NCBI GenBank assembly: GCA_910586385.1
Contig: CAJUGX010000001.1
Coordinates: 78,408-142,407 of the forward strand
Reading direction: 5' to 3'
Source: an uncultured Christensenella sp.
GTDB taxonomy: Bacteria > Bacillota > Clostridia > Christensenellales > UBA1242
DNA: 64,000 nucleotides
The position numbers and the translations under genes are program-made. Positions within the stretch are counted from its first letter, which is position 1. Every line of letters starts with the position of its first letter. A model generated the notes under the pieces. That model searched no databases. It worked only from the letters and a program-made list of their open reading frames with translations, and was not told the origin of the DNA. Of the stretch, positions 9,626 through 55,618 are shown in pieces.

Positions 9626-11355
9626 TATTCAAGTTCCTCCTTTGACAATTGTGAAAGGGCAATCTCTTGATAAACGGCACATTCTTTCATAAGTTCTTGG
9701 TGGGTTCCGCATCCGACCATCTTTCCATTATCCAAAACGACAATCTTGTCAGCATCCATAATTGTGCCCACACGCTGAGCAACAATTACCTTTGTTGCAT
9801 CCTTTGTGTGTTTTGCAAGTGCTTTTCGGAGTTTTTTGTCTGTTTTGTAGTCAAGGGCAGAGAAACTGTCATCAAAAACATATATTTCTGGATTTTTTGC
9901 AATCGCCCTTGCAATGCACAATCTTTGTCTCTGTCCGCCTGAAACATTTGTTCCTCCTTGTGCGACTTGATATTGCAATCCGCCTTCAAGTTTTGAGACA
10001 AAGTCTGCTTGAGCGACCTTGAGTGCCTTTGTCATTTCTTCTTCAGAAATGTTTTCAGCACCGTATTTGATATTCTCTTCAACAGTCCCGCTGAACAAAA
10101 TACCTTTCTGTGGGACAAACCCCAATTTGCTGTTGAGAGCCTCATGAGAATATTCTTTTATATTCACCCCATCAATCAAAACTTCACCAAATGTTGCATC
10201 AAAGAACCTTGGTATAAGATTGACAAGTGTTGATTTGCCACTTCCTGTTGAGCCGATAAATGCAATTGTTTCTCCCTTGTTTGCCACAAAGTTGATGTCT
10301 TCAAGCACATTCATCTCTGAGTCTGGGTACCTGAACGAAACTTTTCTAAATTCAAGTTTTCCCTTTTCTTTTGTTTCGCCATCAAATTCTCCAAAAACTA
10401 TTTTGGACTTTGTTTTCAAAACTTCGTTTATTCTCTTTCCGCTGACAACCGCTCTTGGCATCAACATCACAACAACTGACAAAAACATAAAGCTCATCAA
10501 GATGTGCATACCGTACTGAGTAAATTCAACAATATGACTGAATTGCATTGTTCCCTTATTGATAAAGTGTGCACCGAGCCAGTAGATTGCCAAAGTCAAA
10601 CCATTGAAAATCAAATTCATAAATGGGCTCATCAAACTCATAACTCTTCCAACATAAAGGTTGAGTTTTGTGACATCTTTGTTTACTTCGTCAAATTTTT
10701 CTTCTTGATATTTTTCTGTGTTGTATGCTCTCACAACCCTGAGCCCTGTCAAGTTTTCTCTTGTGACAGAGTTAAGTTTGTCAGTTTTCTTCTGAATCTT
10801 TGTAAACATAGGCATAACGAAAGCGAACAAAAATCCAAGGATGACAAACATTGCAACAACTGCGATTGCTGAGACCCAACTGAAAGTTGCACTTGTCTTA
10901 ACCATGTTGACAATTGAGAATACTGCCATTGTTGGAGCCATAACACCCATACGCAAAGCCATCTGCATAATGTTTTGGATTTGAGTAACATCGTTTGTGC
11001 TTCTCGTGATCAAGCTTGCAGTAGAAAATTTGTTGATTTCTTCTTGTGAGAAACCGTTGACAGTTTTGAATATGTCTGCCCTAAGTCTCTTTGCAAAAAT
11101 GGCTGCAACATAAGTCACCAAACATTGGTTGACAACTGAACACGCCACAATCACTGCTGTATAGATAAGCATCCACTTTCCCGATGCCCAAATTGATGCA
11201 ACAGGCGCGACAATTTGGACTTTGTCAATAAGCTCTGCCATCTTGTCAATCAATTCCATTTCAAAATAAACTTGAGTGACTGTCACTGCCATGCTTATCA
11301 AAGCAAGGATGTATTCATACCACTTCAAATTTCTAAAAATTTTCAACTTTTCCAC
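9625..11355 (-). CDS. ABC exporter permease/ATPase subunit. It has a degenerate Walker B and a consensus signature motif.
   Basis: Walker A GSTGSGKST, signature VSGGQRQRL. Walker B is IYVFDDSFSALD, with the catalytic Glu replaced by Asp. There is a 1-nt overlap with the downstream subunit. Confidence 0.9.
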   Translation of the reverse strand: MEKLKIFRNLKWYEYILALISMAVTVTQVYFEMELIDKMAELIDKVQIVAPVASIWASGKWMLIYTAVIVACSVVNQCLVTYVAAIFAKRLRADIFKTVNGFSQEEINKFSTASLITRSTNDVTQIQNIMQMALRMGVMAPTMAVFSIVNMVKTSATFSWVSAIAVVAMFVILGFLFAFVMPMFTKIQKKTDKLNSVTRENLTGLRVVRAYNTEKYQEEKFDEVNKDVTKLNLYVGRVMSLMSPFMNLIFNGLTLAIYWLGAHFINKGTMQFSHIVEFTQYGMHILMSFMFLSVVVMLMPRAVVSGKRINEVLKTKSKIVFGEFDGETKEKGKLEFRKVSFRYPDSEMNVLEDINFVANKGETIAFIGSTGSGKSTLVNLIPRFFDATFGEVLIDGVNIKEYSHEALNSKLGFVPQKGILFSGTVEENIKYGAENISEEEMTKALKVAQADFVSKLEGGLQYQVAQGGTNVSGGQRQRLCIARAIAKNPEIYVFDDSFSALDYKTDKKLRKALAKHTKDATKVIVAQRVGTIMDADKIVVLDNGKMVGCGTHQELMKECAVYQEIALSQLSKEELE

Positions 11356-11424: not shown

Positions 11425-11456
11425 ATATTACCAAATAACCCGTTGACTTGTCAACG
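11425..11456 (-). promoter_or_regulatory. Promoter of the ABC exporter operon, with an overlapping palindromic operator
   Basis: The minus strand reads TTGACA-18-TGgTAATAT. The -35 element sits inside the perfect palindrome CGTTGAC-TT-GTCAACG (11441-11456). Confidence 0.45.
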
Positions 11457-11494
11457 ATTTCAGGAAACATCTTAGACTAAATATGCTTGCAAAA

Positions 11495-11521: not shown

Positions 11522-14500
11522 TTATTTCAAAGTAGGATAAATCCCAGAAATATCCCAAATTTTTGTGTCAAAGCCAAAGACATTCTGATTGAAGACTCTC
11601 ACATCTCTCTGCACTGCCGTGCTGTAGTTTGCAAGAGAAGTCAAGAATGGCTCAGGAGCAATAACTTTTTCAGTGCTGGTGAAAGAGTATGCTATCTTTC
11701 CACCCAAGCTTCCAACAAGCGAGCCCACTTTCATGCCATTTTCACAAGATATAGTCACCGTTGAATAGCTGTGGTTGATTGACTCCCCAACATTGCTGTT
11801 TAGGTATTTTCCATACAATCCCCCAACTGCTCCGTTTCTGCCAACAGCCATGACGTCGAGATTTCCAACACTGTAGTTGTTTTTACTTTCACTTCTTCCA
11901 TCTCCAACAAGCCCGCCGACATACATTTCATATGCGTTTCCGCTGACAGAATAATGAACTGTCGCTTTGTTTCTGCTGAGATCGAGATTACCTCCATCCA
12001 TACCTTCAAGAAGTCCAACCAGTCCTCCAATGTTCACGTCATCCGCATTTTTGGCTTCAAACTGGAATGATGTCTCAGCCTCATTTTTTATAAGCTTCGA
12101 ACTTCCACCGCTTCTTACAATACCAACAATTCCACCAAAGTTGAGTCCTGCACTTGTTGAGACAGCCTTTCCATTGAGCCCAACACTGCATCCTGAAATA
12201 GTCCCATCTTTCACCTTTGATGCAACTCCACCAAAAGTGAAGTTTTTGTTTGTCCTTACAATCAGGTCTCCTTCACAGCGCACGACACAATCTTTGATTG
12301 TTCCAGTGTTGCTCACTGCAATGCCTCCAAAATTGGAAACATTTTTATAAGTTGCTCCTGCGTAGTATATTCGAATATTTTCAATCGTTCCAGTGTTTGA
12401 ATAGAACAATGTGATGTTTTTATTTGACTTGACAGTTAAATTGGTTACGGATTTCCCATTTCCATCAAGTTTGCCCATAAATGCTGTTGGTTTCCATCTC
12501 CACCCGCTCATGTCGATGTTTTTTTCAAGACGCAACTCGGCATATGGAGCGTTGTGAATCAAACGATTAAACTCTTTTGCATTGTTGATTGTCACAACTG
12601 TTGGCATAAGGTAGAAACCAATGCACATCAGTGCGACATTCAAAAAACCAAATGTCATAAGAACGATGTTTGCAATCTTCCACCTCTGATGCATTTTTTT
12701 CTTTTTGAAAAGATAATATGACATGTGCACGATGGAAAAGAGTGCCCCAAGACAAACAAGAGCAATCACAAAGTTTTGGTTGAAGTACATATACACTTCC
12801 TTTGGAATCGCAATGATAACAATCAACAGTAATGTCGCAAACAGAACTGGGAAGATTTCCAAGAAACCAAACAAATATCTTCTGATAAACTTTTTTCGTC
12901 TTTCGGTCTCTTCGTCAACAACCACTGGTTCTGCATTTGTCTCTTTGGTCTTTCTGCGAGCATTTTTCGCTGAGAGTTTTTCTGCCTTTGCTGCTCTGAG
13001 CCCAGCTTCTCTTCCCTCAAGGTTTGTGACATTGATTGACATATCAAGTGTAAGATCAAGAAGGTCGAGTCTAGTTGCAATCTTCTTTGCAACGTCATTG
13101 TACTCTTCAAGTGTCAAATGCCCCTTAAGCCGAGTTACATAATTCTCAAAAGGTTCGAGTTGCAATTTGAAATAATTGGCCCCGCGAAGAACTCCTTTTC
13201 CTTCCTCTTTTGCCATCTCAAGCAAAATCTTGTTGTTTCTGATAAGGAAGTCGTTCAGCTTCTCAGCCAAATTTTTCTTGTCAAGCCACTCTGGAGCAAG
13301 TCCAGTCTTTTCCCCAGAATAAAGATTTGATTTGCTTATGATTGCCCCGTACTTTTCTGCTTGTGACTCATCAGCACATGCGAGCAGACTCTCCCACTCT
13401 GGCATCTGTGAAACCTTGACATTTGTTTTGACAAGTTTCGCTTCTGAGTTGCAGTGACACTTTATCTGAATCAAAATCCAATAAAGCTCTGCATCGGTTT
13501 TGTTTTTTGAAATTGCAATGGCAATATATTTTTCTGCTGCAACATAGAATCTCATTTGTTGGAAGTGCAATGCAACAGTCTTCAATATCTGTGAGAGTTT
13601 GATATCGTCCTCAACATAAGCGAGGTAAAAATCCAACTGCTCTTGCGTTTTCTTCATATCAACATAACAAATCGGCAAAATCATGTTTATCACAGCAGAG
13701 ATAAGTTGTGCGCGCTTGTCCGCATTGAGATACTTGAGAGTATTTTCAACAACATCCTTTTTTCTGAATGACAATTTTGACTCAACATCTTTGAAGTTTT
13801 TCAAAAGGATTGCGATGTTGCTCTGCTCATGACCTGCGTCAATGTCCAACACTTTCTTATAATAGTTGTCGTCTCCGCTCTTTTGAGCAAGCAAGAAATA
13901 GAAATTTACAAATCTGTCAACATCATTATTTTGGAAACACTTAAGCACTTTCTCTATCAACGATTGATCAAGAGTGTCCAGTGCTTTGTTTTCTGCTGCA
14001 GTGACAAGTTTGTCTCTGTTTGGCGTGTTGTATTGTGCCAAATATAATAGGAAAGAATTGTAATATTCTTCGCTGTCAAGACTGATGATAAGATTGCTCC
14101 AGTTGTCAACAATCATCTCGGCAAAGTCTTTTGGGGCATACTTAAGAATGTTGTCAAGCCTATCCTTCTCTTTGAAGTTTGCAATGTCTGAGAAGAATTC
14201 CCCTGCCGTCCTTACCTTATAATCACACAACAAATCAGCAAACAACAATTCGGCGTTGTTTGGATCTTTTTCGAGTTCTTTTTTTGCGAGATCTTTGGCA
14301 GACTCAAAGTCGCCATTTTTCAAACTGATGAAAATCCATCTGTTTCGGTTTGCCCCAGTCAGCTCGATGTTTTCAACTTTATAATTCCCAAGTTCGGTTG
14401 TAGAGACACTTTCAACGTCAACCTTGGCTTTCTTGACTGAAGAAACTTTGTCAAGTTTGACTTTTTCAATCTTTGCAACTTGACTGACAGACTTTTCTTT

Positions 14501-15364
14501 CTCTGTCTTGATTTTGAGCATCAACTCATCAACAACGCCAACTTCAGACAAATCAACAACACTCTTGATTCCCGCAAATTCTTTAGGGAGATTTTGCATT
14601 GTCACGCCATTGTCAAAAGCAACAACAAAACTTGTCGCGGTCTTTTCTTTTTGAGAAATGAAATATCTGTATCTGTCAAAAAGGTTTTTGATTTCTGGGT
14701 CATTGTATCCAGTCGTCTTGTTTGCGTACAAAACAAAGACTTTGGCTGTTTTGAGTGCATTGAAAGACTCTGATTCGTTTTCTTTGCTGAGCCCTTGCAC
14801 AAAATAAGTTGAGATATCTTTCTCCTTAAGCGAATCGATGAGATTTGTTATCTTTTCGTTTGGATTTGCCTTATCATAGCCCGTCGCACACAACACGACA
14901 TCAAAACTTTCTTTTCCAACCACGTTTTGATATCCATCAACCATTTTGTCAACCATGCGAGATATCTCATTGTAAGTCTTTGCAGTGTCCTCTGGTGCAT
15001 TTTCAACCGCACTTTTGAAATCATCATCTTCACTGATTTTTACAATTTTATCGCCAAAAAAACGAGGCTTCTTGACCGAAGTCCCTCGTCTTGAATATAA
15101 AACTATTTTATGTTTTGCCAAGACTTTTCCAAGGTAAGCTTCAAATGACAAAGGATACATTGACAAGATTTTGTCAAAATCATCCATCGCATCAGCAAAC
15201 TTGAATTGCCTCAGTTTCTCGTAAGCCCAAACTGTGAGAGCATCTTCTTCTTTTGAACCGTGTTCGTCGACATAGAGAGTACCACAAAACTGGCATTTAA
15301 CCATGTTTTGCCCAACAACGACATATTGTCTTCCTCCACAGTTTTTACAAACACGCTCTCTCAA
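11522..15364 (-). CDS. 1280-aa multidomain membrane protein: Zn-ribbon, TIR-like (flavodoxin-fold) domain, TPR-like helical region, 3-4 TM helices and an extracytoplasmic GLUG-repeat beta-helix
   Basis: TTG start with a GAGGG RBS. The Zn-ribbon is CKNCGG..x13..CQFCG. Residues about 163-260 (FDVVLCATGYD..KVFVLYANKT) look TIR-like. The hydrophobic block maps to about nt 12590-12890. The C-terminus has 7 repeats of the type FGGIAVSNTGTIKDC / IGGLVGLLEG / VGGLVGDG. Confidence 0.7.
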   Translation of the reverse strand: MRERVCKNCGGRQYVVVGQNMVKCQFCGTLYVDEHGSKEEDALTVWAYEKLRQFKFADAMDDFDKILSMYPLSFEAYLGKVLAKHKIVLYSRRGTSVKKPRFFGDKIVKISEDDDFKSAVENAPEDTAKTYNEISRMVDKMVDGYQNVVGKESFDVVLCATGYDKANPNEKITNLIDSLKEKDISTYFVQGLSKENESESFNALKTAKVFVLYANKTTGYNDPEIKNLFDRYRYFISQKEKTATSFVVAFDNGVTMQNLPKEFAGIKSVVDLSEVGVVDELMLKIKTEKEKSVSQVAKIEKVKLDKVSSVKKAKVDVESVSTTELGNYKVENIELTGANRNRWIFISLKNGDFESAKDLAKKELEKDPNNAELLFADLLCDYKVRTAGEFFSDIANFKEKDRLDNILKYAPKDFAEMIVDNWSNLIISLDSEEYYNSFLLYLAQYNTPNRDKLVTAAENKALDTLDQSLIEKVLKCFQNNDVDRFVNFYFLLAQKSGDDNYYKKVLDIDAGHEQSNIAILLKNFKDVESKLSFRKKDVVENTLKYLNADKRAQLISAVINMILPICYVDMKKTQEQLDFYLAYVEDDIKLSQILKTVALHFQQMRFYVAAEKYIAIAISKNKTDAELYWILIQIKCHCNSEAKLVKTNVKVSQMPEWESLLACADESQAEKYGAIISKSNLYSGEKTGLAPEWLDKKNLAEKLNDFLIRNNKILLEMAKEEGKGVLRGANYFKLQLEPFENYVTRLKGHLTLEEYNDVAKKIATRLDLLDLTLDMSINVTNLEGREAGLRAAKAEKLSAKNARRKTKETNAEPVVVDEETERRKKFIRRYLFGFLEIFPVLFATLLLIVIIAIPKEVYMYFNQNFVIALVCLGALFSIVHMSYYLFKKKKMHQRWKIANIVLMTFGFLNVALMCIGFYLMPTVVTINNAKEFNRLIHNAPYAELRLEKNIDMSGWRWKPTAFMGKLDGNGKSVTNLTVKSNKNITLFYSNTGTIENIRIYYAGATYKNVSNFGGIAVSNTGTIKDCVVRCEGDLIVRTNKNFTFGGVASKVKDGTISGCSVGLNGKAVSTSAGLNFGGIVGIVRSGGSSKLIKNEAETSFQFEAKNADDVNIGGLVGLLEGMDGGNLDLSRNKATVHYSVSGNAYEMYVGGLVGDGRSESKNNYSVGNLDVMAVGRNGAVGGLYGKYLNSNVGESINHSYSTVTISCENGMKVGSLVGSLGGKIAYSFTSTEKVIAPEPFLTSLANYSTAVQRDVRVFNQNVFGFDTKIWDISGIYPTLK

Positions 15365-15367
15365 CTT

Positions 15368-16516
15368 TTAACCCTCGTTTTTGTTCTTTTTTATGTAACC
15401 GCTGACCTCATTGTTGTAATCATCAAAGAGTTTGATTTCTTTTGGAGTCACGCTTGGTGGCATAACCCCCAAAACCCTGTCAAAGTCAGCATTTGTAACT
15501 TTGATGATGGAATCTGTTGCGATTGCTTCAAGAAGAGGCTCATCCTTTGCTCTATCACAAAGTTCTTCAATGTCCGCACCGCTATAATTTTCTGTCTGCT
15601 CAACGATCTTGTCAATGTCAAAGTCGTCAGAAACAGGCACATTTTTCATGTTTTTCTCAAGCATAAACTTTCTTGCAGGAGCATCAGGAAGAGGCAAATA
15701 AATCTTTTGCGAAAACCTTCCAGAACGCATTGCAGCACTGTCAATGTCCCATGGTCTGTTTGTTGCACCCAAGAGAAGAAGGTTTTGATTTCGTCCAGCA
15801 AAACCATCAATCTGTTGCAAAAACTCGTTTACACGCTTGTTGTTGTGAGTGTCATCACCACGCTTCCCCAAAAGGTTGTCCATCTCATCAATAAAGATGA
15901 TTGCACGGTCTTGTTTATTTGCTTCTTCAAAAAGCGAATTGATGTTTTTCTCACTGTCACCAACCCACTTGCTGACAATGTCAGAGCCTTTGACTGCATA
16001 AAACTTTGCTCCAACTTCGTTTGCAATCGCTTTTGCAATCATTGTTTTTCCCGTCCCCGGAGGTCCATACAAAAGCACACCGCCTCCGCTCTTTTTTCCA
16101 TACATCTTGTATTTGTCCGGATATTTGACAGGATTGATCATCCTGATTGTGATTGACTTCTTGACATCTTCAAGTCCAGCGACATCAGAAAACTTTATGT
16201 CAGGCACTTTTGCTGCCTGCCATTTTTTTACGTCATCATCTTCGCCCTCTGACGACTTGCCATCACCTTTCTTTTCCACCTTGATAGGTTTCTTTCCGAG
16301 ATTTTCTGACAAATCAACAAGCGTCCTCGCTCTTTCCATTCTTGCTTCTTTGAGTTTGCCTTGGCTTTGTTTTGCCATCTGCATCATTGTCTCGCCAGCA
16401 AGAAGAAAGTTCCTTTTTGCCAAAGTAAAGTTTCCCTTATCTTTTGCTTCCTTGCCCTTTCTCATATAAAGGTCAAATGTGTCAGACAAAACAGTCATGT
16501 TTGGTTGTTCTTTCAC
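15368..16516 (-). CDS. Vps4/CdvC-like AAA+ ATPase with an N-terminal MIT-like three-helix domain
   Basis: Walker A GPPGTGKT, Walker B IIFIDEMD, pore loop VSKWVGDSEK (compare Vps4 SKWMGESEK), ATNRPWDIDSAAMRSGRFSQKIYLPLPD. The N-terminal 75 aa (KGKEAKDKGNFTLAKRNFLLAGETMMQMAK..) are MIT-like. There are no TM helices and no protease domain. Confidence 0.8.
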   Translation of the reverse strand: MKEQPNMTVLSDTFDLYMRKGKEAKDKGNFTLAKRNFLLAGETMMQMAKQSQGKLKEARMERARTLVDLSENLGKKPIKVEKKGDGKSSEGEDDDVKKWQAAKVPDIKFSDVAGLEDVKKSITIRMINPVKYPDKYKMYGKKSGGGVLLYGPPGTGKTMIAKAIANEVGAKFYAVKGSDIVSKWVGDSEKNINSLFEEANKQDRAIIFIDEMDNLLGKRGDDTHNNKRVNEFLQQIDGFAGRNQNLLLLGATNRPWDIDSAAMRSGRFSQKIYLPLPDAPARKFMLEKNMKNVPVSDDFDIDKIVEQTENYSGADIEELCDRAKDEPLLEAIATDSIIKVTNADFDRVLGVMPPSVTPKEIKLFDDYNNEVSGYIKKNKNEG

Positions 16517-16565: not shown

Positions 16566-17162
16566 TTAGTTTGAAGCAGAGTCAATCTTCTTTCTGAGTT
16601 CTTCCATTTCCTTGTCAATGCTTTCGCTTGAAAGGCTATCAAGGCTTGCTTGTTCTTCAATAAACTTTGCAAATTCTGCATCTGTCATCTCTGCACCTTT
16701 CTTGTCTTTCCCAGCATTGTAGAACACCTCTTGGCTCATGTCCATGAAGTTGTCCATTTGATCTGTTTGAGTCTCAACTGCAGACATTGCAGCCTCAAAT
16801 TGAGCTTGAATCTTTGCAAATTCTTTTGCATCAGCAAGTTTTGTCATCTCTTTGCTGATGTCGCTCATCCCTCTAAGGAAATCAGAAGTCATCATTGTGA
16901 CATCTTTCATCTGAGCAGTGATTTCAAAGTTGAGAAGCATCTCTTGTGCTCTTCTTTGTTGTTGAACAGTCATCTTATAACCACTGAGTGCAAGTTTGTA
17001 TTGTGCGTCAAGAGACTTTTCTTTCGCTCTTTTTGCAGCATCAATAAACACTTGTTTTTGATCCTCAAGTTTGTTGATTTGTTTGTTCATAGTGTTGATA
17101 GTTCTTTTTACCAACATCTTCTTTTCAATTTCTTTTTGTTGTTTAGTTTTGAACAATCCCAT
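16566..17162 (-). CDS. ESCRT-III superfamily protein, Vps2/Vps24/CHMP1-3-like
   Basis: 198 aa. The N-terminus MGLFKTKQQKE is followed by a basic helical hairpin, then ..MKDVTMMTSDFLRGMSDISKEMTKLADAKEFAKIQAQFEAAMSAVETQTDQMDNFMDMS.. (compare CHMP1/2 ..KSM..MN...I...M..FE.Q.E..D...E.M.D..). It has an acidic tail and a C-terminal amphipathic helix DKEMEELRKKI. Confidence 0.75.
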   Translation of the reverse strand: MGLFKTKQQKEIEKKMLVKRTINTMNKQINKLEDQKQVFIDAAKRAKEKSLDAQYKLALSGYKMTVQQQRRAQEMLLNFEITAQMKDVTMMTSDFLRGMSDISKEMTKLADAKEFAKIQAQFEAAMSAVETQTDQMDNFMDMSQEVFYNAGKDKKGAEMTDAEFAKFIEEQASLDSLSSESIDKEMEELRKKIDSASN

Positions 17163-17163
17163 T

Positions 17164-17778
17164 TTATTCCTCCATCATCATTTTTTTCTTTTTGTTTGCA
17201 GAACTTTCTTTTTCTCTTTCTGAGAAAAGTTCTTGCTCATCAGCCAATTGATTTTCCTTTTCAAAAATTGTCAAGATATCCTCTTCACTTTTGTTTACGC
17301 CATAGATTGGTTGATTGAGATCATACGCTGATTGCACTTCTGAGAAAACCTCATCCGCACTGGTAAGCACATCTTCACTTGAAATTCTTGTTTCAAGCGC
17401 TTTATTCAAAAACTTTGCAAGTCCAAGTTGATCTTTCAAAAGTTCTGAAAGAGGCACTTTCGTTTGAGTTTTGAAGAAAGTATTGCTGTCAAATGCATCC
17501 TTAAGCTTTGTCATAAGCCTTATGTTGTAAAGCAAATACATTCCTCTTTCCATGCAAGTTTTCTTTTCCTCATTGAGGTGAGCAATCTTCTTTGCATAGA
17601 AAAGTTGCAAGTCTTTGTTTTTTTCATTTTTCCCTTTTTCCATAAGTGCATCGATCTCTTTGATCTTCTGGAAAACTTCCGCTTCAACAGTTCGCTCTTG
17701 CCTTTCGAGTTCGCAAATGGAATTGACCAAATCTTCTCTGTTGAGTTTTTTGAATTTGTTTCTCTTAAATAACCACAC
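17164..17778 (-). CDS. ESCRT-III superfamily protein, Snf7/Vps20/CHMP4-like
   Basis: 204 aa. MWLFKRNKFKK..EKGKNEKNKDLQLFYAKKIAHLNEEKKTCMERGMYLLYNI.. parallels Snf7 ..G.KNKR.AL..LKRKK..E.QL..I.G....IE... It has an acidic C-terminal half. Confidence 0.65.
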   Translation of the reverse strand: MWLFKRNKFKKLNREDLVNSICELERQERTVEAEVFQKIKEIDALMEKGKNEKNKDLQLFYAKKIAHLNEEKKTCMERGMYLLYNIRLMTKLKDAFDSNTFFKTQTKVPLSELLKDQLGLAKFLNKALETRISSEDVLTSADEVFSEVQSAYDLNQPIYGVNKSEEDILTIFEKENQLADEQELFSEREKESSANKKKKMMMEE

Positions 17779-17792
17779 CGCTTCTGCTCCTC

Positions 17793-18155
17793 CTAATAGT
17801 CATTGCCCATCACGATTTTGTTTACGCCTTCCAAAAGATCTTCATAGATTTTCTTTTGACCATCGTCTCCAAAGGTGAATGCGTTTTGGCACTCCGCCAT
17901 TGTCATAATGTCTTTGTAAGCCATTGGATCCTTGAGAAGTTCGCCCTCGTCTTTGATTTTGAGTTTGTACAACATCAATCCCCAATAGGCATCTGCACAC
18001 TTGCTGTCATACTGAAGAGCCAACAAAAAGTTTAACCTCGCTTGCTCAAACATACCTTCACTCAAATTGAGATAACCGAGTCGAAGTTCTTTCAACACCC
18101 TTGGTTGTCTCTCTGGCTTCACAGAGTCAGATGCTTGATACATTCTTACACTCAT
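17793..18155 (-). CDS. Small TPR-like helical protein
   Basis: 120 aa. ..GMFEQARLNFLLALQYDSKCADAYWGLMLYKL.. resembles the TPR segment near the N-terminus of the 1280-aa protein. ATGA overlap with the upstream gene. Confidence 0.5.
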   Translation of the reverse strand: MSVRMYQASDSVKPERQPRVLKELRLGYLNLSEGMFEQARLNFLLALQYDSKCADAYWGLMLYKLKIKDEGELLKDPMAYKDIMTMAECQNAFTFGDDGQKKIYEDLLEGVNKIVMGNDY

Positions 18156-18574
18156 GCTTGCTCTTCCTTCTTTCTTTGCACGATGTATGCTTCAACTTCT
18201 TCAAGCATTCTCATGCAAGTCTCTTGTGTGTTGTCTTTTGCAACGAGGATTTTCAAGTCATCAAGTTTGTTTGAAAGTTTTGCATCCACTGCCAAAACTT
18301 TTTGATTTGTTGTTGGATTGAAAAATCTTACATTGTCTTTCACTTCCACCAATCTTCTGCAAAGTTCGTCATTTCCATCCGCATAAACAATAATTGATTC
18401 AACATTTGCGACCATGTTTTCGATTGACTTTTTGTTTTTAAGCACTCCACGGCTTCCAACATCTTCTTTTTCGCCGCCAGCTGATTTGCTACCTTTTCTG
18501 CCGTATTCTCTCCACATAAAGAAACCGGCAAGACCAAGGACAGCAACCGCAACGATAACATAAACTACCCACAT
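18152..18574 (-). CDS. N-terminally anchored membrane protein with a cytoplasmic helical domain
   Basis: 140 aa. TM helix MWVVYVIVAVAVLGLAGFFMW, then a charged linker and a helical domain. Confidence 0.5.
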   Translation of the reverse strand: MWVVYVIVAVAVLGLAGFFMWREYGRKGSKSAGGEKEDVGSRGVLKNKKSIENMVANVESIIVYADGNDELCRRLVEVKDNVRFFNPTTNQKVLAVDAKLSNKLDDLKILVAKDNTQETCMRMLEEVEAYIVQRKKEEQA

Positions 18575-18583
18575 ATTTCCTCC

Positions 18584-19432
18584 TTATATCTTCTTTCCGC
18601 AATTCTGACAGAACTTGGCAGTTGCACTGTTTTCAGTGTTGCAATCTGGACAAATCTTTGTCCCACCAACTTTTCTTCCGCAGTTGTTGCAGAACTTTGC
18701 ATTCGCATTCAACTCTTCTCCACAGTCTGGACAATAAACCGCCCCCACACTTTTTGGAGCAGCAGGCTTTGCCCCGCCCTTGAAGTTTCCTGAGAGTTTT
18801 GCGTAATCAGCATCGTCAATGATAATATTTGCAATATTGAAAGAATAAACAGCGATTCCGTATTCTCCCATAAGTTTTTGATTGAGTTTTGTCAAAACCT
18901 TGGCAGAAATCTCTCTCTTCTTGACTGTGACTTGATTGAACAAAATTTCTTGAGCACTCACATACTCCACAACAACATTTTCAACGACAGACACAACTGT
19001 TGTTTGAAGTCTGTCTTGAAGATCCGCGGTTGTCAAATCGTTGTCCGCTCCAATCAGATAAAGATAACACTTTCTTGGATCACCAATCTGCACATCATAA
19101 TCGCCACTCATGCCAACTCGATAGTTTTCTTGCAGATTTGCATCATACATCAAAAACTTTTGAGCTGTCCCCCACAAGAGGTTGAGTTTTGCAGTCTTTG
19201 ACATAAACAAAACTTCCAAATTGCTGTCCATCTCGCTCTTGATGTCCACAAACTTGCTGACAAGATACTTGCCAGAAGACAATGTTTGAAGCATCTGCCC
19301 ATCTTTAATCAAAATAGCATTGTGCGTTTCTGGGACAAGCAGAGTTAGTTTTGGAGTCAATGTCTCAATTTTATGACGGTTGAAAAGCTGTTTGTTGTCA
19401 CCGGAAAATGTAATTACATTTTGTTCCATCAT
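18584..19432 (-). CDS. YdjI-type SPFH-domain protein (COG4260 'virion core protein'-like) with two C-terminal zinc ribbons
   Basis: 282 aa. ..LLVPETHNAILIKDGQMLQTLSSGKY..LWGTAQKFLMYD..YRVGMSGDYDVQIGDP.. follows the YdjI pattern. The C-terminus has CPDCGEEL..CNNCG and CPDCNTEN..CQNCG. The second ATG (19429) may be the true start. Confidence 0.7.
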   Translation of the reverse strand: MMEQNVITFSGDNKQLFNRHKIETLTPKLTLLVPETHNAILIKDGQMLQTLSSGKYLVSKFVDIKSEMDSNLEVLFMSKTAKLNLLWGTAQKFLMYDANLQENYRVGMSGDYDVQIGDPRKCYLYLIGADNDLTTADLQDRLQTTVVSVVENVVVEYVSAQEILFNQVTVKKREISAKVLTKLNQKLMGEYGIAVYSFNIANIIIDDADYAKLSGNFKGGAKPAAPKSVGAVYCPDCGEELNANAKFCNNCGRKVGGTKICPDCNTENSATAKFCQNCGKKI

Positions 19433-19473: not shown

Positions 19474-19501
19474 ATTATCACAAACATTTTTCAAAAGTCA
19501 A
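19474..19501 (-). promoter_or_regulatory. Promoter of the ESCRT-like operon (TTGACT-16-TGtGATAAT)
   Basis: The minus strand reads TTGACTtttgaaaaatgtttgTGATAAT about 35-40 nt upstream of the SPFH start. Confidence 0.5.
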
Positions 19502-20026: not shown

Positions 20027-20143
20027 ATATCCGTTTACATAAAAATTGCTAAAAAAAACGATTTTTCAAAAAAATATCTTGTCAAATTATTTACTTTTTG
20101 TTTGTTTTATTGTAAAATATTTTGGTATAAAGGAGAAAGACCT

Positions 20144-20542
20144 ATGAACATTGAGAAAAAATATGGAGAAGGAGCAGAGCTTATTTGGTCTGACAGAAAA
20201 AGATTTTGGGGAATGCCACTTTCTTTCACAAGATACAGATTGATCAGAAAACCTGGCTCATGGTTTAAGTTGTTTTCAGACATCGGATTCACATACTCTG
20301 AAGTTGAAGAACTCAACCTCTATCGTGTGTGCGATATCTCATTCAGACAATCACTCTTTGGAAAGCTGTTTGACACAGGATCAGTTATTTTGAGAAGCAA
20401 TGATTCTTCAATGCCAACACTCACTTTGAGAAACATCAAAAATCCTTTCAAAGTAAGGGATATGCTTTCTGAATATATCGAACAAGAAAGAAAAGTCCAT
20501 GGTGTTCGCCTTACAGAACAACATAGACATGGCGGAAGCTAA
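20144..20542 (+). CDS. Bacterial PH-domain (bPH_2/YdbS-like) protein
   Basis: Start at MNIEKK, with RBS AAAGGAGAAAG. ..YRLIRKPGSWFKLFSDIGFTYSEVEELNLYRVCDISFRQSLFGKLFDTGSVIL.. fits the bPH_2 pattern. Confidence 0.55.
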   Translation: MNIEKKYGEGAELIWSDRKRFWGMPLSFTRYRLIRKPGSWFKLFSDIGFTYSEVEELNLYRVCDISFRQSLFGKLFDTGSVILRSNDSSMPTLTLRNIKNPFKVRDMLSEYIEQERKVHGVRLTEQHRHGGS

Positions 20543-20645: not shown

Positions 20646-20722
20646 GGGGGTATGGCTCAGTTGGCTAGAGCACCTGCCTTGCAAGCAGGGGGTCATCGGT
20701 TCGAATCCGATTATCTCCACCA
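20646..20722 (+). tRNA. tRNA-Ala (anticodon UGC), with CCA encoded
   Basis: I folded the cloverleaf by hand: acceptor GGGGGTA/TATCTCC with the G3:U70 alanine identity pair, D-arm GCTC..GAGC, anticodon loop CTTGCAA, T-arm ATCGG-TTCGAAT-CCGAT, then A-CCA. Confidence 0.95.
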
Positions 20723-20725
20723 GAC

Positions 20726-20772
20726 AAACCTAAGGTAAATTCGTTTTGAGAAAATCGCCTTAGGTTTTTTTC
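20726..20772 (+). terminator. Terminator after tRNA-Ala
   Basis: AAACCTAAGG-(22 nt)-CCTTAGGTTT followed by TTTT. Confidence 0.65.
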
Positions 20773-20849
20773 TTTTGTCACATTTTGTTTTGCTTGGTTT
20801 GAAATTTTGTTTATGTTATAATGTTATATAAAGTATGGAGAAAAACTGG

Positions 20850-21794
20850 ATGAAATCACCTCGTAATAAAACAATTGATTTTTCTATGGATAAAGGACAA
20901 CAATACCTCAACAGATGTATTGATGTTTCATCTGATGTTTCATTGCCAGAAATCTTGGACAAGACAATTTATGGAGATACTTTCGAAGTGTTGAAACACC
21001 TTCCTAAAAAGTGTGTAGATTTGCTGATAGTTGACCCCTGCTACAATCTTGACAAAAATTTCCATGGATTGAAGTTTTCAAAACTCAACGATACCGAATA
21101 TGTCAAATATACTTGCCGTTGGATTGAAGCCGTTTTGCCTCTTTTGAAAGACAATGCTTCAATATATGTTTGTTGTGATTGGCAATCCAGTCTGTTGATT
21201 GGAAATGTTTTGAATCAATATTTCAACATTGTAAATCGCATAACTTGGCAACGAGAAAAAGGAAGGGGCGCTCAAACCAACTGGAAAAATGCAATGGAAG
21301 ACATTTGGTTTGCAACCGTTTCAAAAAAATACACTTTCAATGTCGAATCTGTAAAATCAAGAAGAAAAGTTATTGCGCCTTATAAAACGAATGGAAAACC
21401 AAAAGACTGGGAAGAAACCGAGGGGGGAAATTATAGAAACACATACCCTTCAAATTTTTGGGATGATATTTCAATCCCATATTGGTCAATGCCTGAAAAC
21501 ACCGCACATCCAACTCAAAAACCCGAGAAATTGTTTGCAAAATTGATTTTAGCAAGCAGCAACAAAGGGGATGTCGTTTTGGATCCATTCTTAGGCTCTG
21601 GTACGTCATCAGTGGTTGCAAAAAAACTTGGAAGACACTTCATTGGTATTGAACAGAATCCCCTCTACTGCTCTTGGGCTGAGTATAGATTGGAATTGGC
21701 AGACACCGACAAAACAATACAAGGATATACAAACGGTGTTTTCTGGGAAAGAAATACTTTGTCGCAACAACATAAGGAGAAAAAAGATGATTGA
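20850..21794 (+). CDS. Beta-class DNA amino-methyltransferase (N6-A or N4-C), part of a type II R-M locus
   Basis: Motif IV comes first (LLIVDPCYNL, a DPPY variant). Motif I follows (VLDPFLGSGTSSVVAKKLGRHFIGIE). The start at 20850 has GGAG 9 nt upstream. The alternative start is 20835. Confidence 0.85.
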   Translation: MKSPRNKTIDFSMDKGQQYLNRCIDVSSDVSLPEILDKTIYGDTFEVLKHLPKKCVDLLIVDPCYNLDKNFHGLKFSKLNDTEYVKYTCRWIEAVLPLLKDNASIYVCCDWQSSLLIGNVLNQYFNIVNRITWQREKGRGAQTNWKNAMEDIWFATVSKKYTFNVESVKSRRKVIAPYKTNGKPKDWEETEGGNYRNTYPSNFWDDISIPYWSMPENTAHPTQKPEKLFAKLILASSNKGDVVLDPFLGSGTSSVVAKKLGRHFIGIEQNPLYCSWAEYRLELADTDKTIQGYTNGVFWERNTLSQQHKEKKDD

Positions 21795-22445
21795 TTCACC
21801 AATTTTTGAAGAAAATAATTTGAAACAAATAGAATTCAACATATTGAATCTGCTTAAAAACTGCACAGAACTCAACAATCCTCACATTGCAAACAGTCCC
21901 CGTGCTGTCGGCGACAGTGTGCAAGAAGTTTTGGGAGAACGAATGAGTGAATGTTTCCCAAGTGGCACAATAAAGGATTTTAGTGATAGTTTTGCAAGAA
22001 GGGCAATGGCAGATGTAGCCTTTATAGATTCGCAAGACAACTATTTCGCTGTTGACATAAAAACCCACAATAGGTGCACTGACTTCAATATGCCAAACTT
22101 AACATCAGTGGAACGCCTTTCAAAGTTTTATGAAAAAATAAAAACTTCTTTATTATACTACTGGCAGAATACAAAGTCACCGATGGCACAATAGAATTTG
22201 ATGCCGTAAGGCTTGTCCCAATTGAACATCTAAAATGGGATTGTTTAACAATCGGAGCATTAGGTTGGGGACAAATTCAAATTGCAAATGCAAGCTTTGT
22301 AAACATTGATCGTACACAAAAACGAAAAGACTGGATGTTGCAATTGTGCAATAAGATGGGCATTTTCTATCCAAAAGAAATTGCAAAGATACAGAAAAGA
22401 ATCAATCGCTTTGAAGAAATACGAAAGTTCTGGAATCAAAAATAA
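21787..22445 (+). pseudogene. Type II restriction endonuclease (PD-(D/E)XK-like), disrupted by a -1 frameshift at a poly-A tract
   Basis: The start overlaps the MTase stop by 8 nt. The candidate active site is ..ADVAFIDSQDNYFAVDIKTH... Frame 1 stops at TAG 22192-22194. The +1 frame continues ..KNKNFFIILLAEYKVTDGTIEFDAVRLVPIEHLKWD..RKFWNQK* to 22445. The A6 run lies at 22133-22138. Confidence 0.65.
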
Positions 22446-45872: not shown

Positions 45873-45877
45873 AAATT

Positions 45878-45905
45878 AGGCACAGAAAATCTGTGCCTTT
45901 TTTTA
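45878..45905 (+). terminator. Rho-independent terminator
   Basis: AGGCACAG-aaaat-CTGTGCCT followed by TTTTTTT. Confidence 0.85.
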
Positions 45906-45942
45906 TAAAAATCCGACAAAAAACCAACAAAAAACAACAAAT

Positions 45943-50774: not shown

Positions 50775-50785
50775 ATTAAGAAGCC

Positions 50786-50826
50786 AAAAAGCACTTAAAC
50801 AAAATGATGTTTACGTGCTTTTTTAT
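50786..50826 (+). terminator. Probable terminator after the helicase gene
   Basis: GCACTTAAAC-(8 nt)-GTTTACGTGC (one mismatch) followed by TTTTTT. Confidence 0.5.
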
Positions 50827-50847
50827 TCAAACAATTAAGGAGTGTTT

Positions 50848-53600: not shown

Positions 53601-53630
53601 AAGGTTGTCATTATCGACAACCTTTTTTCT
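53598..53630. terminator. Bidirectional terminator
   Basis: AAGGTTGTC-(6 nt)-GACAACCTT flanked by an A-run and a T-run. It lies between convergent genes. Confidence 0.8.
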
Positions 53631-55487: not shown

Positions 55488-55505
55488 AACTACCACCTTT
55501 CTACA

Positions 55506-55514
55506 ATTATAACA
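55506..55514 (-). promoter_or_regulatory. Extended -10 element TGTTATAAT for the HExxH gene
   Basis: It explains the spurious MCYNCRKVVV N-terminal extension in the ORF track. Confidence 0.5.
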
Positions 55515-55618
55515 CAATTATAAATTTTTGTAAATATCTAAGTAAAGTTTTTTATAAATATGGAAAAGTTTAATGCTACACTTTTTTATCAAAAACATAT
55601 ACAAACTTATGGAAAGTA

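What the first reader, a model, noticed from the sequence alone, without database searches (positions are those of the whole stretch)
15368..16516. MIT-like + AAA+ ATPase with Vps4-type signatures in a bacterium
The single AAA module shows GPPGTGKT, IIFIDEMD and the pore-loop context VSKWVGDSEKNINSLF (Vps4: VSKWMGESEKLVKQLF). It also shows ATNRPWDIDSA....IYLPLPD, which is characteristic of the Vps4/katanin ('meiotic') clade. The N-terminal 75 aa or so (..YMRKGKEAKDKGNFTLAKRNFLLAGETMMQMAKQSQGKLKEARMERARTLVDLSENL) have the three-helix, Ala/Leu-zippered look of a MIT domain. An acidic/Lys-rich linker follows, as in Vps4. One caveat: the arginine-finger stretch reads MRSGRF, which is closer to the RPGRF of classical-clade AAA proteins than to the Vps4 RRRF. 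Clade placement therefore needs a real phylogeny. There is no TM segment, protease domain or second AAA ring.
Basis: partly seen in the sequence, partly recalled or inferred. Interest (0 to 1): 0.85.

Follow-up and report, generated by a model that had tools for sequence, protein, structure and literature searches.

The report
Bacterial Vps4-like ATPase with ESCRT-III partner
A gut Clostridia bacterium encodes a Vps4-style ATPase (MIT domain plus one AAA motor) directly after an ESCRT-III-like protein in a conserved seven-gene operon, a pairing that recent reviews say is confined to archaea and eukaryotes.

Summary

The N-terminal 71 residues model confidently (pLDDT 91) as a three-helix bundle. 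Its seven best PDB matches are all Vps4 MIT domains, and its family profile matches MIT in register (hhalign E 4e-6).

The gene directly upstream (p198) has an ESCRT-III fold: 19 of the top 20 Foldseek hits are ESCRT-III superfamily. It also has a full-length collinear profile match to the Snf7 family (E 2.7e-4), basic-N/acidic-C charge asymmetry and a conserved C-terminal amphipathic helix.

The cluster SPFH-Zn-ribbon / TM protein / TPR-like protein / p204 / p198 / MIT-AAA / 1280-aa TPR+TM giant is syntenic in 40 species of gut Clostridia. Its core recurs in more divergent Firmicutes.

The ATPase is not an orthologue of Vps4/CdvC. It keeps the classical R-x-G-R arginine-finger spacing and fails the CdvC model cutoff. 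It forms its own 100%-supported bacterial clade, which usually, but weakly, joins the Vps4/katanin/spastin clade.

Best reading: a bacterial ESCRT-III/Vps4-like membrane-remodelling module. Function is inferred, not shown. p204 is untested at fold level.

The parts
15368..16516 (-). MIT-AAA ATPase, 382 aa (the finding)
   Evidence: ORF; Pfam AAA + AAA_lid_3; family alignment A1
16304..16498 (-). MIT-like three-helix bundle, res 7-71 (H7-26, H30-49, H53-71)
   Evidence: AF2 pLDDT 91.1, pTM 0.78; Foldseek top 7 are Vps4 MIT domains; hhalign vs MIT E 4.3e-6; no Pfam MIT hit
16208..16303 (-). Variable charged linker, res 72-103 (net charge +2)
   Evidence: Mean column identity 0.22, against 0.71 in the AAA large domain
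15647..16207 (-). AAA large domain, res 104-290: Walker A 16043-16066, pore loop KWVG 15959-15970, Walker B 15878-15901, Arg fingers R264/R267 15716-15727
   Evidence: Invariant residues in A1; Pfam AAA 147-276
15401..15646 (-). Lid domain (res 291-340) and C-terminal helix region (res 341-372); no beta-domain insertion
   Evidence: AAA_lid_3; Vps4_C 17.8 bits here, which is below the cutoff; 12 of 21 family members hit Vps4_C, best E 4.8e-7; p97 D2 also hits it
16566..17162 (-). p198: ESCRT-III (Snf7)-like protein with N-terminal MGLFK basic motif and C-terminal amphipathic helix IDKEMEELRKKI
   Evidence: Foldseek: 19 of top 20 hits are ESCRT-III superfamily (model pLDDT only 58.5); hhalign vs Snf7 family E 2.7e-4 over 156 columns; charge +9/-11; always adjacent to the AAA gene
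17164..17778 (-). p204: helical protein with basic N-terminus (MWLFKRNKFKK); candidate second ESCRT-III-like subunit, unproven
   Evidence: Syntenic in 40 loci at 47-92% identity; charge +5/-8; hhalign vs Snf7 and vs p198 not above controls; not modelled
17793..18155 (-). p120: small soluble protein with one TPR-like motif
   Evidence: ORF; conserved in 36 loci, missing in L036-L039; no significant family hit
18152..18574 (-). TM140: protein with one N-terminal TM helix
   Evidence: Hydropathy segment at res 1-24; conserved; homologue in divergent locus L047, E 3.9e-8
18584..19432 (-). SPFH (Band_7_1) protein with C-terminal double zinc ribbon
   Evidence: Pfam Band_7_1 4.1e-15, Zn_Ribbon_1 3.3e-14, DZR 2.8e-10; SPFH also present in L046 and L047
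11522..15364 (-). 1280-aa giant: N-terminal Zn ribbon, TPR, about 3-4 TM helices (res 829-926), C-terminal GG[IL][VA]G-repeat domain (extracellular placement inferred)
   Evidence: CxxC pairs at res 6 and 24, hydropathy, sequence; TPR_14 E 4.6e-5; syntenic
19474..19501 (-). Promoter-like site about 40 nt upstream of the SPFH gene (putative operon start)
   Evidence: 10 of 12 consensus match with TG extension; consensus match only, and the scan is not enriched over shuffles

Best explanation
The ORF encodes the ATPase of a bacterial ESCRT-III/Vps4-like membrane-remodelling module. It has a MIT domain, a flexible linker, one catalytically intact AAA cassette and a C-terminal helix. It is the sixth gene of a conserved operon: SPFH-Zn-ribbon, single-pass TM protein, TPR-like protein, p204, p198, MIT-AAA, 1280-aa TPR+TM giant. 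Proposed mechanism (inferred): p198, possibly together with p204, polymerises on the cytoplasmic face of the membrane through its basic N-terminal half and MGLFK motif. The SPFH protein and the TM proteins recruit or scaffold the polymer. The MIT domain docks on the conserved C-terminal amphipathic helix of p198. The hexameric AAA ring then threads the subunit through its K-W pore loops and extracts it, driving polymer turnover or constriction. By descent it is not an orthologue of Vps4/CdvC. It belongs to a separate Firmicutes clade of classical AAA ATPases that lies nearest the Vps4/katanin/spastin clade and Cdc48 D2, and it keeps the ancestral R-x-G-R arginine fingers. Shown here: domain folds, motif integrity, synteny and clade separateness. 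Inferred: the MIT-p198 interaction, polymerisation, membrane activity and cellular role.
For: MIT fold: pLDDT 91; ranks 1-7 are Vps4 MIT; spartin, MITD1, calpain-7, NRBF2 and katanin MIT rank lower. MIT at sequence-profile level: (E 4.3e-6; 3.5e-5 over 60 columns vs CdvC MIT; controls 0.0014 or worse). Intact AAA motor. p198 is ESCRT-III-like: CHMP1B, CHMP2A/3, Asgard CHMP4-7 and ESCRT-IIIB, Snf7, Vipp1, PspA, CdvB; full-length collinear hhalign to Snf7 family, E 2.7e-4, reversed controls 0.14-0.42; the true remote pair PspA-Snf7 scores only 0.14; charge asymmetry +9/-11; terminal-helix conservation 0.75 vs linker 0.53-0.63. Linkage: seven-gene synteny in 40 species, with p204, p198 and AAA the most conserved genes. 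A p198 orthologue sits directly upstream of the AAA in divergent systems L046 and L047 (E 1e-49, 5e-39), which also carry SPFH. Clade: bacterial clade 100% bootstrap; meiotic-clade members join it first in 141 of 200 replicates, Cdc48 D2 in about 19; never nested in FtsH, PAN or D1 groups. The SPFH + ESCRT-III pairing has precedent in B. subtilis YdjI-PspA and in archaeal Meth_adaptin ESCRT loci with SPFH + Zn ribbon (PMC10936438).
Against: No Pfam MIT or Snf7 hit, and the family profiles find no ESCRT-III chain among PDB sequences. The Foldseek E-values are weak (0.013-0.4), and the p198 model is low confidence (pLDDT 58.5). The SRH is R-S-G-R-F, not the RRRF of Vps4. The CdvC equivalog scores 209 against a cutoff of 650, and CDC48 scores slightly higher at 218. 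The family HMM scores Cdc48 D2 (243-271 bits) above Vps4/CdvC (227-244). The tree is neighbour-joining only, with few archaeal references, and the {bacterial + meiotic + Msp1} split has only 44.5% support. p204 shows nothing above controls. There are no experimental or expression data.
Confidence: 0.72

Rival explanations
1. It is a generic classical-clade AAA unfoldase derived from a Cdc48 D2-like module. Its three-helix N-domain is a TPR/MIT-like adaptor for some other client, such as the 1280-aa membrane giant or the SPFH assembly, by analogy with FtsH inside HflK/C cages. The neighbouring coiled-coil proteins would be scaffolds rather than ESCRT-III-type polymers.
For: Best per-domain PDB and HMM similarity is to p97/Cdc48 D2. 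Classical R-x-G-R arginine fingers. The Vps4_C-like helix is shared with p97 D2. The SKWVGDSEK pore loop also occurs in a Cdc48-like D1. An SPFH gene is in the operon. Two-AAA variants with the same N-domain exist (P0153, P0402).
Against: The N-domain's closest structures are specifically Vps4 MIT domains, not generic TPRs, and the profile match to MIT equals that of CdvC. p198's top structural matches are almost exclusively ESCRT-III, with a collinear Snf7 profile match. The ATPase has no TM anchor or protease. {Bacterial + D2} grouping has 2.5% bootstrap support.
Confidence: 0.15
2. It is an anti-phage or abortive-infection system built around an IetA/IteA-like AAA ATPase, with the membrane proteins acting as effectors.
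For: PADLOC IetA 139 bits and NCBIfam IteA 118 bits. PHROG AAA families hit. One divergent locus has a trypsin-like protease after the AAA gene (L046). The window carries defence islands elsewhere.
Against: The IteA score of 118 is far below its cutoff of 510 and is no better than generic AAA similarity. No IetS-type protease is present in this operon or in the 40 syntenic loci. None of the six partner proteins gives a credible hit to a PADLOC defence-system component; only SPFH-Zn has two marginal hits at E about 1e-3 to 1e-2. The locus sits in a stable chromosomal position across 40 species, unlike a mobile defence island.
Confidence: 0.06
3. It is simply the Firmicutes branch of the already reported bacterial 'MIT+Vps4-AAA -> TPR+TM(s)' dyad, acquired from archaea. 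In that reading the TPR+TM protein is the functional partner and the upstream coiled-coil genes are incidental.
For: Ravi et al. [quoted passage not shown] Here too the MIT-AAA gene is followed immediately by a TPR+TM giant.
Against: p198 is more conserved than the giant (70-98% vs 37-69% identity across the 36 close species loci; in L036-L039 p198 is 58% and the giant about 22% over a partial match) and is retained next to the AAA in divergent systems, one of which (L046) lacks a giant. The clade does not nest with CdvC in the tree ({bacterial + CdvC} 1.5%). Sequence relatedness to the Opitutus protein could not be tested.
Confidence: 0.07

Closest known systems
Archaeal CdvC / Vps4 with CdvB (ESCRT-III), e.g. 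Sulfolobus
   Same: MIT - linker - single AAA - C-terminal helix, with no beta-domain. K-W pore loop. PW motif before the SRH. Encoded next to an ESCRT-III-fold gene. The best structural match of the N-domain is the Sulfolobus MIT/CdvB complex 2w2u.
   Different: Bacterial host. R-S-G-R-F rather than RRF arginine fingers. CdvC model score 209, far below the cutoff of 650. Separate clade. No CdvA. The partner has a MIM1-like amphipathic helix (inferred) rather than the proline-rich MIM2 plus winged helix of CdvB. Operon partners are SPFH-Zn ribbon, a TM protein and a TPR+TM giant.
Eukaryotic Vps4 / ESCRT-III (CHMP2/3, CHMP1B)
   Same: Overall architecture. p198's best fold hits are CHMP1B and CHMP2A-CHMP3. 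The MGLF N-terminus resembles CHMP3. Same charge asymmetry and a C-terminal helix after an acidic linker.
   Different: No beta-domain or Vta1. No ESCRT-0, -I or -II. About 37-39% identity in the AAA module. Pfam Snf7 and MIT HMMs do not detect the proteins.
Bacterial PspA/Vipp1 systems, especially B. subtilis PspA-YdjGHI
   Same: A bacterial ESCRT-III-superfamily protein in an operon with a Band_7_1 SPFH protein, a zinc-ribbon element and a membrane protein. Vipp1 and PspA also appear among p198's fold hits.
   Different: PspA systems have no Vps4-like MIT-AAA (PMC7619361). PspF is an unrelated bEBP AAA+. p198 aligns better to Snf7 (E 2.7e-4, full length) than to PspA (0.04, 20 columns) and has no PspA_IM30 hit.
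Bacterial 'MIT+Vps4-AAA -> TPR+TM(s)' dyad (Ravi et al. 2024; Opitutus ACB74714.1)
   Same: A MIT-AAA ATPase in a bacterium followed by a large TPR + multi-TM protein.
   Different: That dyad is reported in other phyla and with snf7 'displaced'. Here Snf7-like genes lie immediately upstream, and SPFH is part of the cluster. The Firmicutes clade is not mentioned in that paper.
Cdc48/p97 D2 module
   Same: Highest raw sequence similarity. R-x-G-R fingers. IY(I/L)PLPD motif. C-terminal helix hitting Vps4_C.
   Different: Single cassette. No double-psi barrel N-domain. MIT instead. TIGR01243 scores 218, far below the cutoff of 803.

Membership tests
Vps4/CdvC (ESCRT-IV), meiotic-clade AAA | N-terminal MIT three-helix bundle | tested here: met
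   AF2 pLDDT 91; Foldseek ranks 1-7 are Vps4 MIT; hhalign E 4.3e-6. The Pfam MIT HMM itself does not hit.
Vps4/CdvC (ESCRT-IV), meiotic-clade AAA | Single AAA cassette with intact Walker A/B, sensor 1 and aromatic pore loop 1 (K-W/Y-x-G) | tested here: met
   GPPGTGKT, DE at 210-211, N253, KWVG at 183-186.
Vps4/CdvC (ESCRT-IV), meiotic-clade AAA | SRH with adjacent arginine fingers (RRR[FL], lacking the P-G insertion of classical AAA) | tested here: not met
   MRSGRF; R264 and R267 are invariant with R-x-G-R spacing in all 21 family members. That RRF-type SRH is clade-defining comes from my own knowledge of the typed Vps4, CdvC, katanin, spastin and Msp1 sequences.
Vps4/CdvC (ESCRT-IV), meiotic-clade AAA | C-terminal helix after the lid (Pfam Vps4_C) | tested here: inconclusive
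   17.8 bits here, below the 21.3 cutoff. 12 of 21 relatives hit, best E 4.8e-7, similar to spastin, katanin and CdvC. But p97 D2 also hits at E 5.3e-6, so the feature is not specific.
Vps4/CdvC (ESCRT-IV), meiotic-clade AAA | Phylogenetic placement inside the clade, or passing the CdvC equivalog threshold | tested here: not met
   NF041006 scores 208.6, cutoff 650. NJ tree: a separate bacterial clade with 100% support, adjacent to the meiotic clade in about 70% of replicates but never nested in it. An ML tree with broad archaeal sampling was not possible.
Vps4/CdvC (ESCRT-IV), meiotic-clade AAA | Genomic or functional coupling to ESCRT-III subunits carrying MIT-interacting motifs | tested here: inconclusive
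   Adjacency to ESCRT-III-like p198 is met. The MIM-MIT interaction itself was not testable. The C-terminal helix is conserved, but its binding is inferred.
ESCRT-III / Snf7 family (for partner p198) | Sequence match to Pfam Snf7 (PF03357) | tested here: not met
   No hit at E<=0.1. The profile vs PDB sequences finds no ESCRT-III chain.
ESCRT-III / Snf7 family (for partner p198) | Alpha1-alpha2 hairpin plus alpha3-5 fold, basic-N/acidic-C halves, N-terminal membrane motif, C-terminal helix | tested here: met
   Helices 7-48, 52-108, 112-151, 161-176, 180-197 (low pLDDT). Foldseek top hits are ESCRT-III. hhalign to the Snf7 family E 2.7e-4 over 156 columns. Charge +9/-11.
PspA/IM30 family (for partner p198) | Pfam PspA_IM30 match | tested here: not met
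   No hit. hhalign to E. coli PspA gives only 20 columns at E 0.04, within control range.
Cdc48/p97 | Double-psi barrel N-domain and tandem D1-D2 AAA cassettes; TIGR01243 threshold | tested here: not met
   Single cassette with MIT N-domain. 218 bits, cutoff 802.65.
FtsH | N-terminal TM helices and C-terminal M41 zinc protease | tested here: not met
   No TM segment, no Peptidase_M41 hit. TIGR01241 scores 198, cutoff 600.
IetA/IteA anti-phage ATPase | IteA equivalog threshold and a partner IetS protease gene | tested here: not met
   NF042959 scores 118, cutoff 510. No protease in the operon.
Bacterial MIT+Vps4-AAA -> TPR+TM dyad (Ravi 2024) | MIT-AAA gene followed by a TPR + multi-TM protein gene | tested here: met
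   The 1280-aa downstream protein has TPR_14 and TM helices at res 829-926.

The most novel reading that the evidence does not exclude
This is a complete, vertically maintained bacterial ESCRT-III/Vps4-type machine: two Snf7-like subunits playing nucleator and executor roles, a MIT-AAA disassemblase, and an SPFH/TM recruitment platform. Its ATPase lineage would be sister to the whole archaeal-eukaryotic Vps4/katanin/spastin clade and would retain the ancestral arginine-finger spacing. That would mean the ESCRT-III-plus-dedicated-MIT-AAA partnership predates, or arose independently of, the archaeal system. It would overturn the view that bacteria regulate ESCRT-III-like polymers without a Vps4.
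Probability: 0.3. Interest if true: 0.9.

Novelty: new variant of a known kind. Interest (0 to 1): 0.78.

Why it matters
[quoted passage not shown] The one report of bacterial MIT-Vps4-like ATPases says snf7 has been displaced (PMC11237479).

Here a MIT-AAA ATPase is tightly and widely linked to an ESCRT-III-fold protein that standard HMMs miss, in abundant gut Clostridia. If the inference is right, three things follow. It gives a bacterial model for ATP-driven ESCRT-III turnover. It bears on when the ESCRT-III/Vps4 partnership arose: an ancient origin, an inter-domain transfer, or convergence from a Cdc48-like ancestor. It also suggests that Snf7-like proteins are under-counted in bacteria because their sequences have diverged beyond Pfam detection. 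The SPFH + zinc-ribbon partner mirrors both B. subtilis YdjI-PspA and archaeal Meth_adaptin ESCRT loci, hinting at a deeply conserved recruitment module.

Tried and rejected
- **Direct HMM tests.** Pfam and NCBIfam scans of the N-domain, p198 and p204 gave no MIT, Snf7 or PspA hits. hmmsearch of the p198 and p204 family profiles against PDB sequences gave no ESCRT-III hit.
- **p198-p204 paralogy.** hhalign was collinear but not significant (E 0.095). p204 vs Snf7, PspA or p198 was no better than reversed-sequence controls. I therefore do not claim p204 is ESCRT-III.
- **Vps4_C as a clade marker.** Rejected after the p97-D2 control also hit it.
- **Pore-loop SKWVGDSEK as Vps4-specific.** Rejected, because it also occurs in D1 of a Cdc48-like protein.
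- **Wider bacterial clade as the Opitutus-type family.** I tested this by searching with P0177. All named hits are Firmicutes/Clostridia/Eubacteriales, so the link to the published dyad stays untested.
- **ABC exporter pair as part of the system.** It is syntenic in close species but absent from L036-L039, L046 and L047, and is preceded by a hairpin plus a promoter-like site, so I treat it as a neighbour.
- **Defence-system reading.** PADLOC and IteA scores are generic AAA similarity only.
- **Limits reached.** Both structure-prediction slots went on the N-domain and p198, so the full-length ATPase, p204 and any MIT-MIM complex could not be modelled.
Full report
**1. Observation**

The ORF at 15368..16516 on the minus strand encodes 382 aa. 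Gene callers on four public contigs carrying the identical protein call the same ORF. Pfam finds one AAA domain (res 147-276, E 1.4e-42) and AAA_lid_3 (E 2.3e-10), and no TM segment, protease or second cassette. All quoted motifs are present. In an alignment of 21 relatives at 42-62% identity, the catalytic residues are invariant: K157, T158, D210, N253, R264 and R267.

**2. The N-domain is a MIT domain**

Pfam's MIT model does not hit residues 1-109, even at E<=10. The evidence comes from fold and profile comparisons instead.
- AlphaFold2 models residues 1-82 with pLDDT 91.1 and pTM 0.78 as three helices: 7-26, 30-49 and 53-71.
- In Foldseek against 350,542 PDB chains, ranks 1-7 are all Vps4 MIT domains. 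Ranks 1-2 are the Sulfolobus Vps4-like MIT bound to a CdvB peptide (2w2u), followed by VPS4B, VPS4A and S. solfataricus MIT. Spartin, MITD1, calpain-7, NRBF2 and katanin-p60 MIT domains rank lower.
- The Foldseek E-values are weak (0.046-0.3), as expected for a 70-residue helical bundle, so I added a sequence-profile test.
- hhalign of the N-domain family against an alignment of Vps4, VPS4A, VPS4B and CdvC MIT domains gives E 4.3e-6 in register. Against CdvC MIT alone it gives E 3.5e-5 over 60 columns.
- Controls: reversed query 0.021; thirty column-shuffled queries with median 0.4 and minimum 0.0014. The genuine CdvC-MIT vs eukaryotic-MIT match scores 3.4e-6.
Vps4, VPS4B and CdvC were validated by Pfam MIT hits.
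- A variable, charged linker (res 72-103, column identity 0.22, net charge +2) follows the domain.

**3. Which AAA clade?**

Raw similarity does not discriminate.
- NCBIfam scores: CDC48 218 bits, CdvC 208.6, PAN 198, FtsH 198, all far below their cutoffs.
- The best per-domain PDB match is p97 D2 at 198.8 bits.
- A family HMM scores Cdc48 D2 modules at 243-271 bits, Vps4/katanin/CdvC/FIGL1/spastin at 213-244, and D1/PAN/FtsH/Msp1/Rpt6/ATAD2 at 181-212.

The C-terminal region hits Pfam Vps4_C weakly here (17.8 bits) and clearly in 12 of 21 relatives (best E 4.8e-7). That is the range seen for spastin, katanin and CdvC. My control shows that p97 D2 hits Vps4_C too (E 5.3e-6), while PAN and FtsH do not. 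The helix therefore groups this protein with Vps4 and Cdc48 D2 but does not separate those two.

The SKWVGDSEK pore loop also occurs in D1 of a Cdc48-like protein. The SRH has the classical R-x-G-R spacing, invariant in the family, and not the RR(R)F of Vps4, CdvC, katanin, spastin and Msp1. There is no beta-domain insertion.

I built a neighbour-joining tree of 48 AAA modules (271 columns, 200 bootstraps).
- The references were validated against curated models: CdvC 699 bits (cutoff 650), FtsH 1080 (cutoff 1008), PAN 642 (cutoff 500).
- A bacterial clade, made of the core family plus P0153, P0157, P0177, P0208 and the second module of P0121, has 100% support.
- The first group to join it consists of meiotic-clade members, with or without Msp1, in 141 of 200 replicates, and Cdc48 D2 sequences in about 19.
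- It is never nested in the FtsH, proteasomal or D1 groups.
- The {bacterial + meiotic + Msp1} split has only 44.5% support.

Conclusion: this is a distinct bacterial lineage of classical AAA ATPases, nearest the Vps4/katanin clade and Cdc48 D2. It is not an orthologue of Vps4/CdvC.

**4. Genomic context**

The gene is sixth in a tightly packed minus-strand cluster:

| Gene | Coordinates | Description |
|---|---|---|
| SPFH-Zn | 18584-19432 | Band_7_1 plus two zinc ribbons |
| TM140 | 18152-18574 | 140 aa, one N-terminal TM helix |
| p120 | 17793-18155 | 120 aa, TPR-like |
| p204 | 17164-17778 | helical, basic N-terminus |
| p198 | 16566-17162 | ESCRT-III-like |
| MIT-AAA | 15368-16516 | the finding |
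| Giant | 11522-15364 | 1280 aa: Zn ribbon, TPR, TM helices at res 829-926, C-terminal GG-repeat domain |

- A scan of species-representative genomes found 40 loci, all gut Clostridia MAGs labelled Ca. Caccovivens, Christensenellaceae, Catabacter and similar.
- The seven-gene order is kept in the 36 close species. The four distant loci L036-L039 lack p120, and in two of them (L037, L038) the giant's weak homologue lies upstream.
- p204, p198 and the AAA are the most conserved genes, at 70-98% identity in the 36 close species and 51-59% in L036-L039.
- More divergent Firmicutes relatives, about 45-50% identical in the ATPase, keep the core. L046 has SPFH, a 97-aa gene, a 203-aa gene, a p198 orthologue (E 1e-49) and the AAA. 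L047 has a TM140 homologue, a 320-aa gene, a p198 orthologue (E 5e-39), the AAA, a 1405-aa giant and SPFH.

**5. p198 is ESCRT-III-like**

- Pfam, NCBIfam, PADLOC and PHROGs find nothing, and a family profile finds no ESCRT-III chain among PDB sequences.
- The AF2 model is low confidence (pLDDT 58.5). It predicts helices 7-48, 52-108, 112-151, 161-176 and 180-197, an ESCRT-III-like pattern.
- In Foldseek, 19 of the top 20 PDB hits are ESCRT-III-superfamily polymers, at E 0.013-0.4 with probability up to 1.00: CHMP1B, CHMP2A-CHMP3, Loki CHMP4-7, Asgard ESCRT-IIIB, Snf7, Vipp1 and PspA. CdvB follows lower down.
- hhalign of the p198 family, deepened with the L046 and L047 orthologues, against six Pfam-validated Snf7-family sequences gives E 2.7e-4 over 156 collinear columns (p198 1-171 to CHMP3 1-168). 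The MGLFK start aligns to the MGLFG start.
- Reversed controls give 0.14-0.42, and E. coli PspA gives only a 20-column local match at E 0.04. The true remote pair PspA-Snf7 scores just 0.14 in this set-up, so the test is conservative.
- p198 has the ESCRT-III charge asymmetry: N-half +9 (pI 9.9), C-half -11 (pI 4.3).
- Conservation rebounds in the terminal helix IDKEMEELRKKI (0.75) after a variable acidic linker (0.53-0.63). An equivalent amphipathic C-terminal helix is present in L046 and L047. This is what a MIM-type docking motif would look like, but binding is inferred.

**6. p204**

p204 has a similar basic N-terminus (MWLFKRNKFKK), a +5/-8 charge split and strict synteny. hhalign to Snf7, to PspA and to p198 is no better than controls, and I had no prediction slot left to model it. 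The second gene of the L047 system does give a collinear Snf7 match (E 0.004, 117 columns). p204 is a candidate second subunit only.

**7. Mechanism (inferred)**

- The SPFH-Zn-ribbon protein and the TM proteins provide a membrane platform.
- p198, with or without p204, polymerises on the membrane.
- The MIT domain binds the p198 C-terminal helix.
- The AAA hexamer threads and extracts subunits, driving polymer turnover or constriction.

The SPFH link has precedent. [quoted passage not shown] The cellular role is unknown; candidates are envelope repair, division, sporulation and vesiculation.

**8. What is known**

- Makarova et al. [quoted passage not shown]
- A 2025 review states that a Vps4-like ATPase appears absent in bacteria.
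- Ravi et al. [quoted passage not shown] These are followed by a TPR+TM protein, with snf7 'displaced'. They also report a separate two-AAA protein next to PspA in some bacteria, including a Clostridium.
- The present operon shares the MIT-AAA then TPR+TM dyad, but it is in Firmicutes and retains a Snf7-like gene that HMMs miss.
- Five literature searches found no description of this system. The held library is incomplete, so prior description elsewhere cannot be excluded.

**9. Verdict**

Membership in the Vps4/CdvC family proper is not supported. I class this as a new variant of a known kind, with high interest because it contradicts a current generalisation and is directly testable.

Noticed in passing
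window 44475-55517 (GC 0.30-0.35, against about 0.39 elsewhere): Low-GC island that looks like a defence locus, possibly BREX type 4 or phosphorothioation-related. It encodes a BspA-type LRR protein, a 944-aa protein with no family hit, a UvrD/GajB-like helicase (PADLOC GajB 150 bits), a PAPS-reductase-domain protein (BrxP 272 bits; weaker SspD/DndC), a class-V aminotransferase (SspA 94 bits, DndA 87 bits) and a 628-aa unknown on the opposite strand.
   Followed up: partly
window 20646-22194; compare L001 vs L002 at about 2.6-5.5 kb: tRNA-Ala (20646-20722) is followed by a Type II N6/N4 DNA methyltransferase (20835-21794, PADLOC MTase_II 228 bits) and an overlapping 192-aa ORF with no family hit, possibly the cognate nuclease. 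In an otherwise identical strain (L002), Fic and SocA_Panacea genes are inserted beside this methyltransferase, so this is a variable hotspot.
   Followed up: partly
window 7799-11355 (-): A pair of ABC_membrane+ABC_tran half-transporter genes (a heterodimeric exporter type) lies directly downstream of the operon. It is syntenic in most of the 40 close species (33 of the 40 genome-scan loci) but absent from the distant loci L036-L039, L046 and L047. It is preceded by a hairpin and a promoter-like site at 11425-11457. Ravi et al. mention ABC ATPase/permease genes extending some Snf7/AAA+ operons, so a functional link is not excluded.
   Followed up: partly
alignment A1 (P0126, P0131, P0133, P0138, P0140-P0142, P0154, P0165, P0176, P0181, P0185, P0254): Many family members carry an extra C-terminal extension of about 100-190 aa (about 80-280 aa including a low-complexity linker) after the AAA module. 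The extension is beta-rich in appearance, has a conserved Cys and ends in G(I/L)xExD(L/F)G. This window's protein lacks it. Its nature is unknown.
   Followed up: no
P0153, P0396-P0403, P0121; locus L048: Variants exist with the same MIT-like N-domain followed by two AAA cassettes. P0121 is a fusion of a core-family module with a second, divergent module. The L048 two-AAA variant sits among small TM and helical genes that have no detectable p198 homologue.
   Followed up: partly
locus L046, 9573-10598: In one divergent system, a trypsin-like serine protease gene with an N-terminal Sel1/TPR-like region directly follows the MIT-AAA gene, in the position the 1280-aa giant occupies here.
   Followed up: no
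window 20102-20542 (+): A bacterial PH-domain (bPH_2) protein is encoded just upstream of the operon on the opposite strand. It is conserved at that position in the closely related contigs L001-L004.
   Followed up: no
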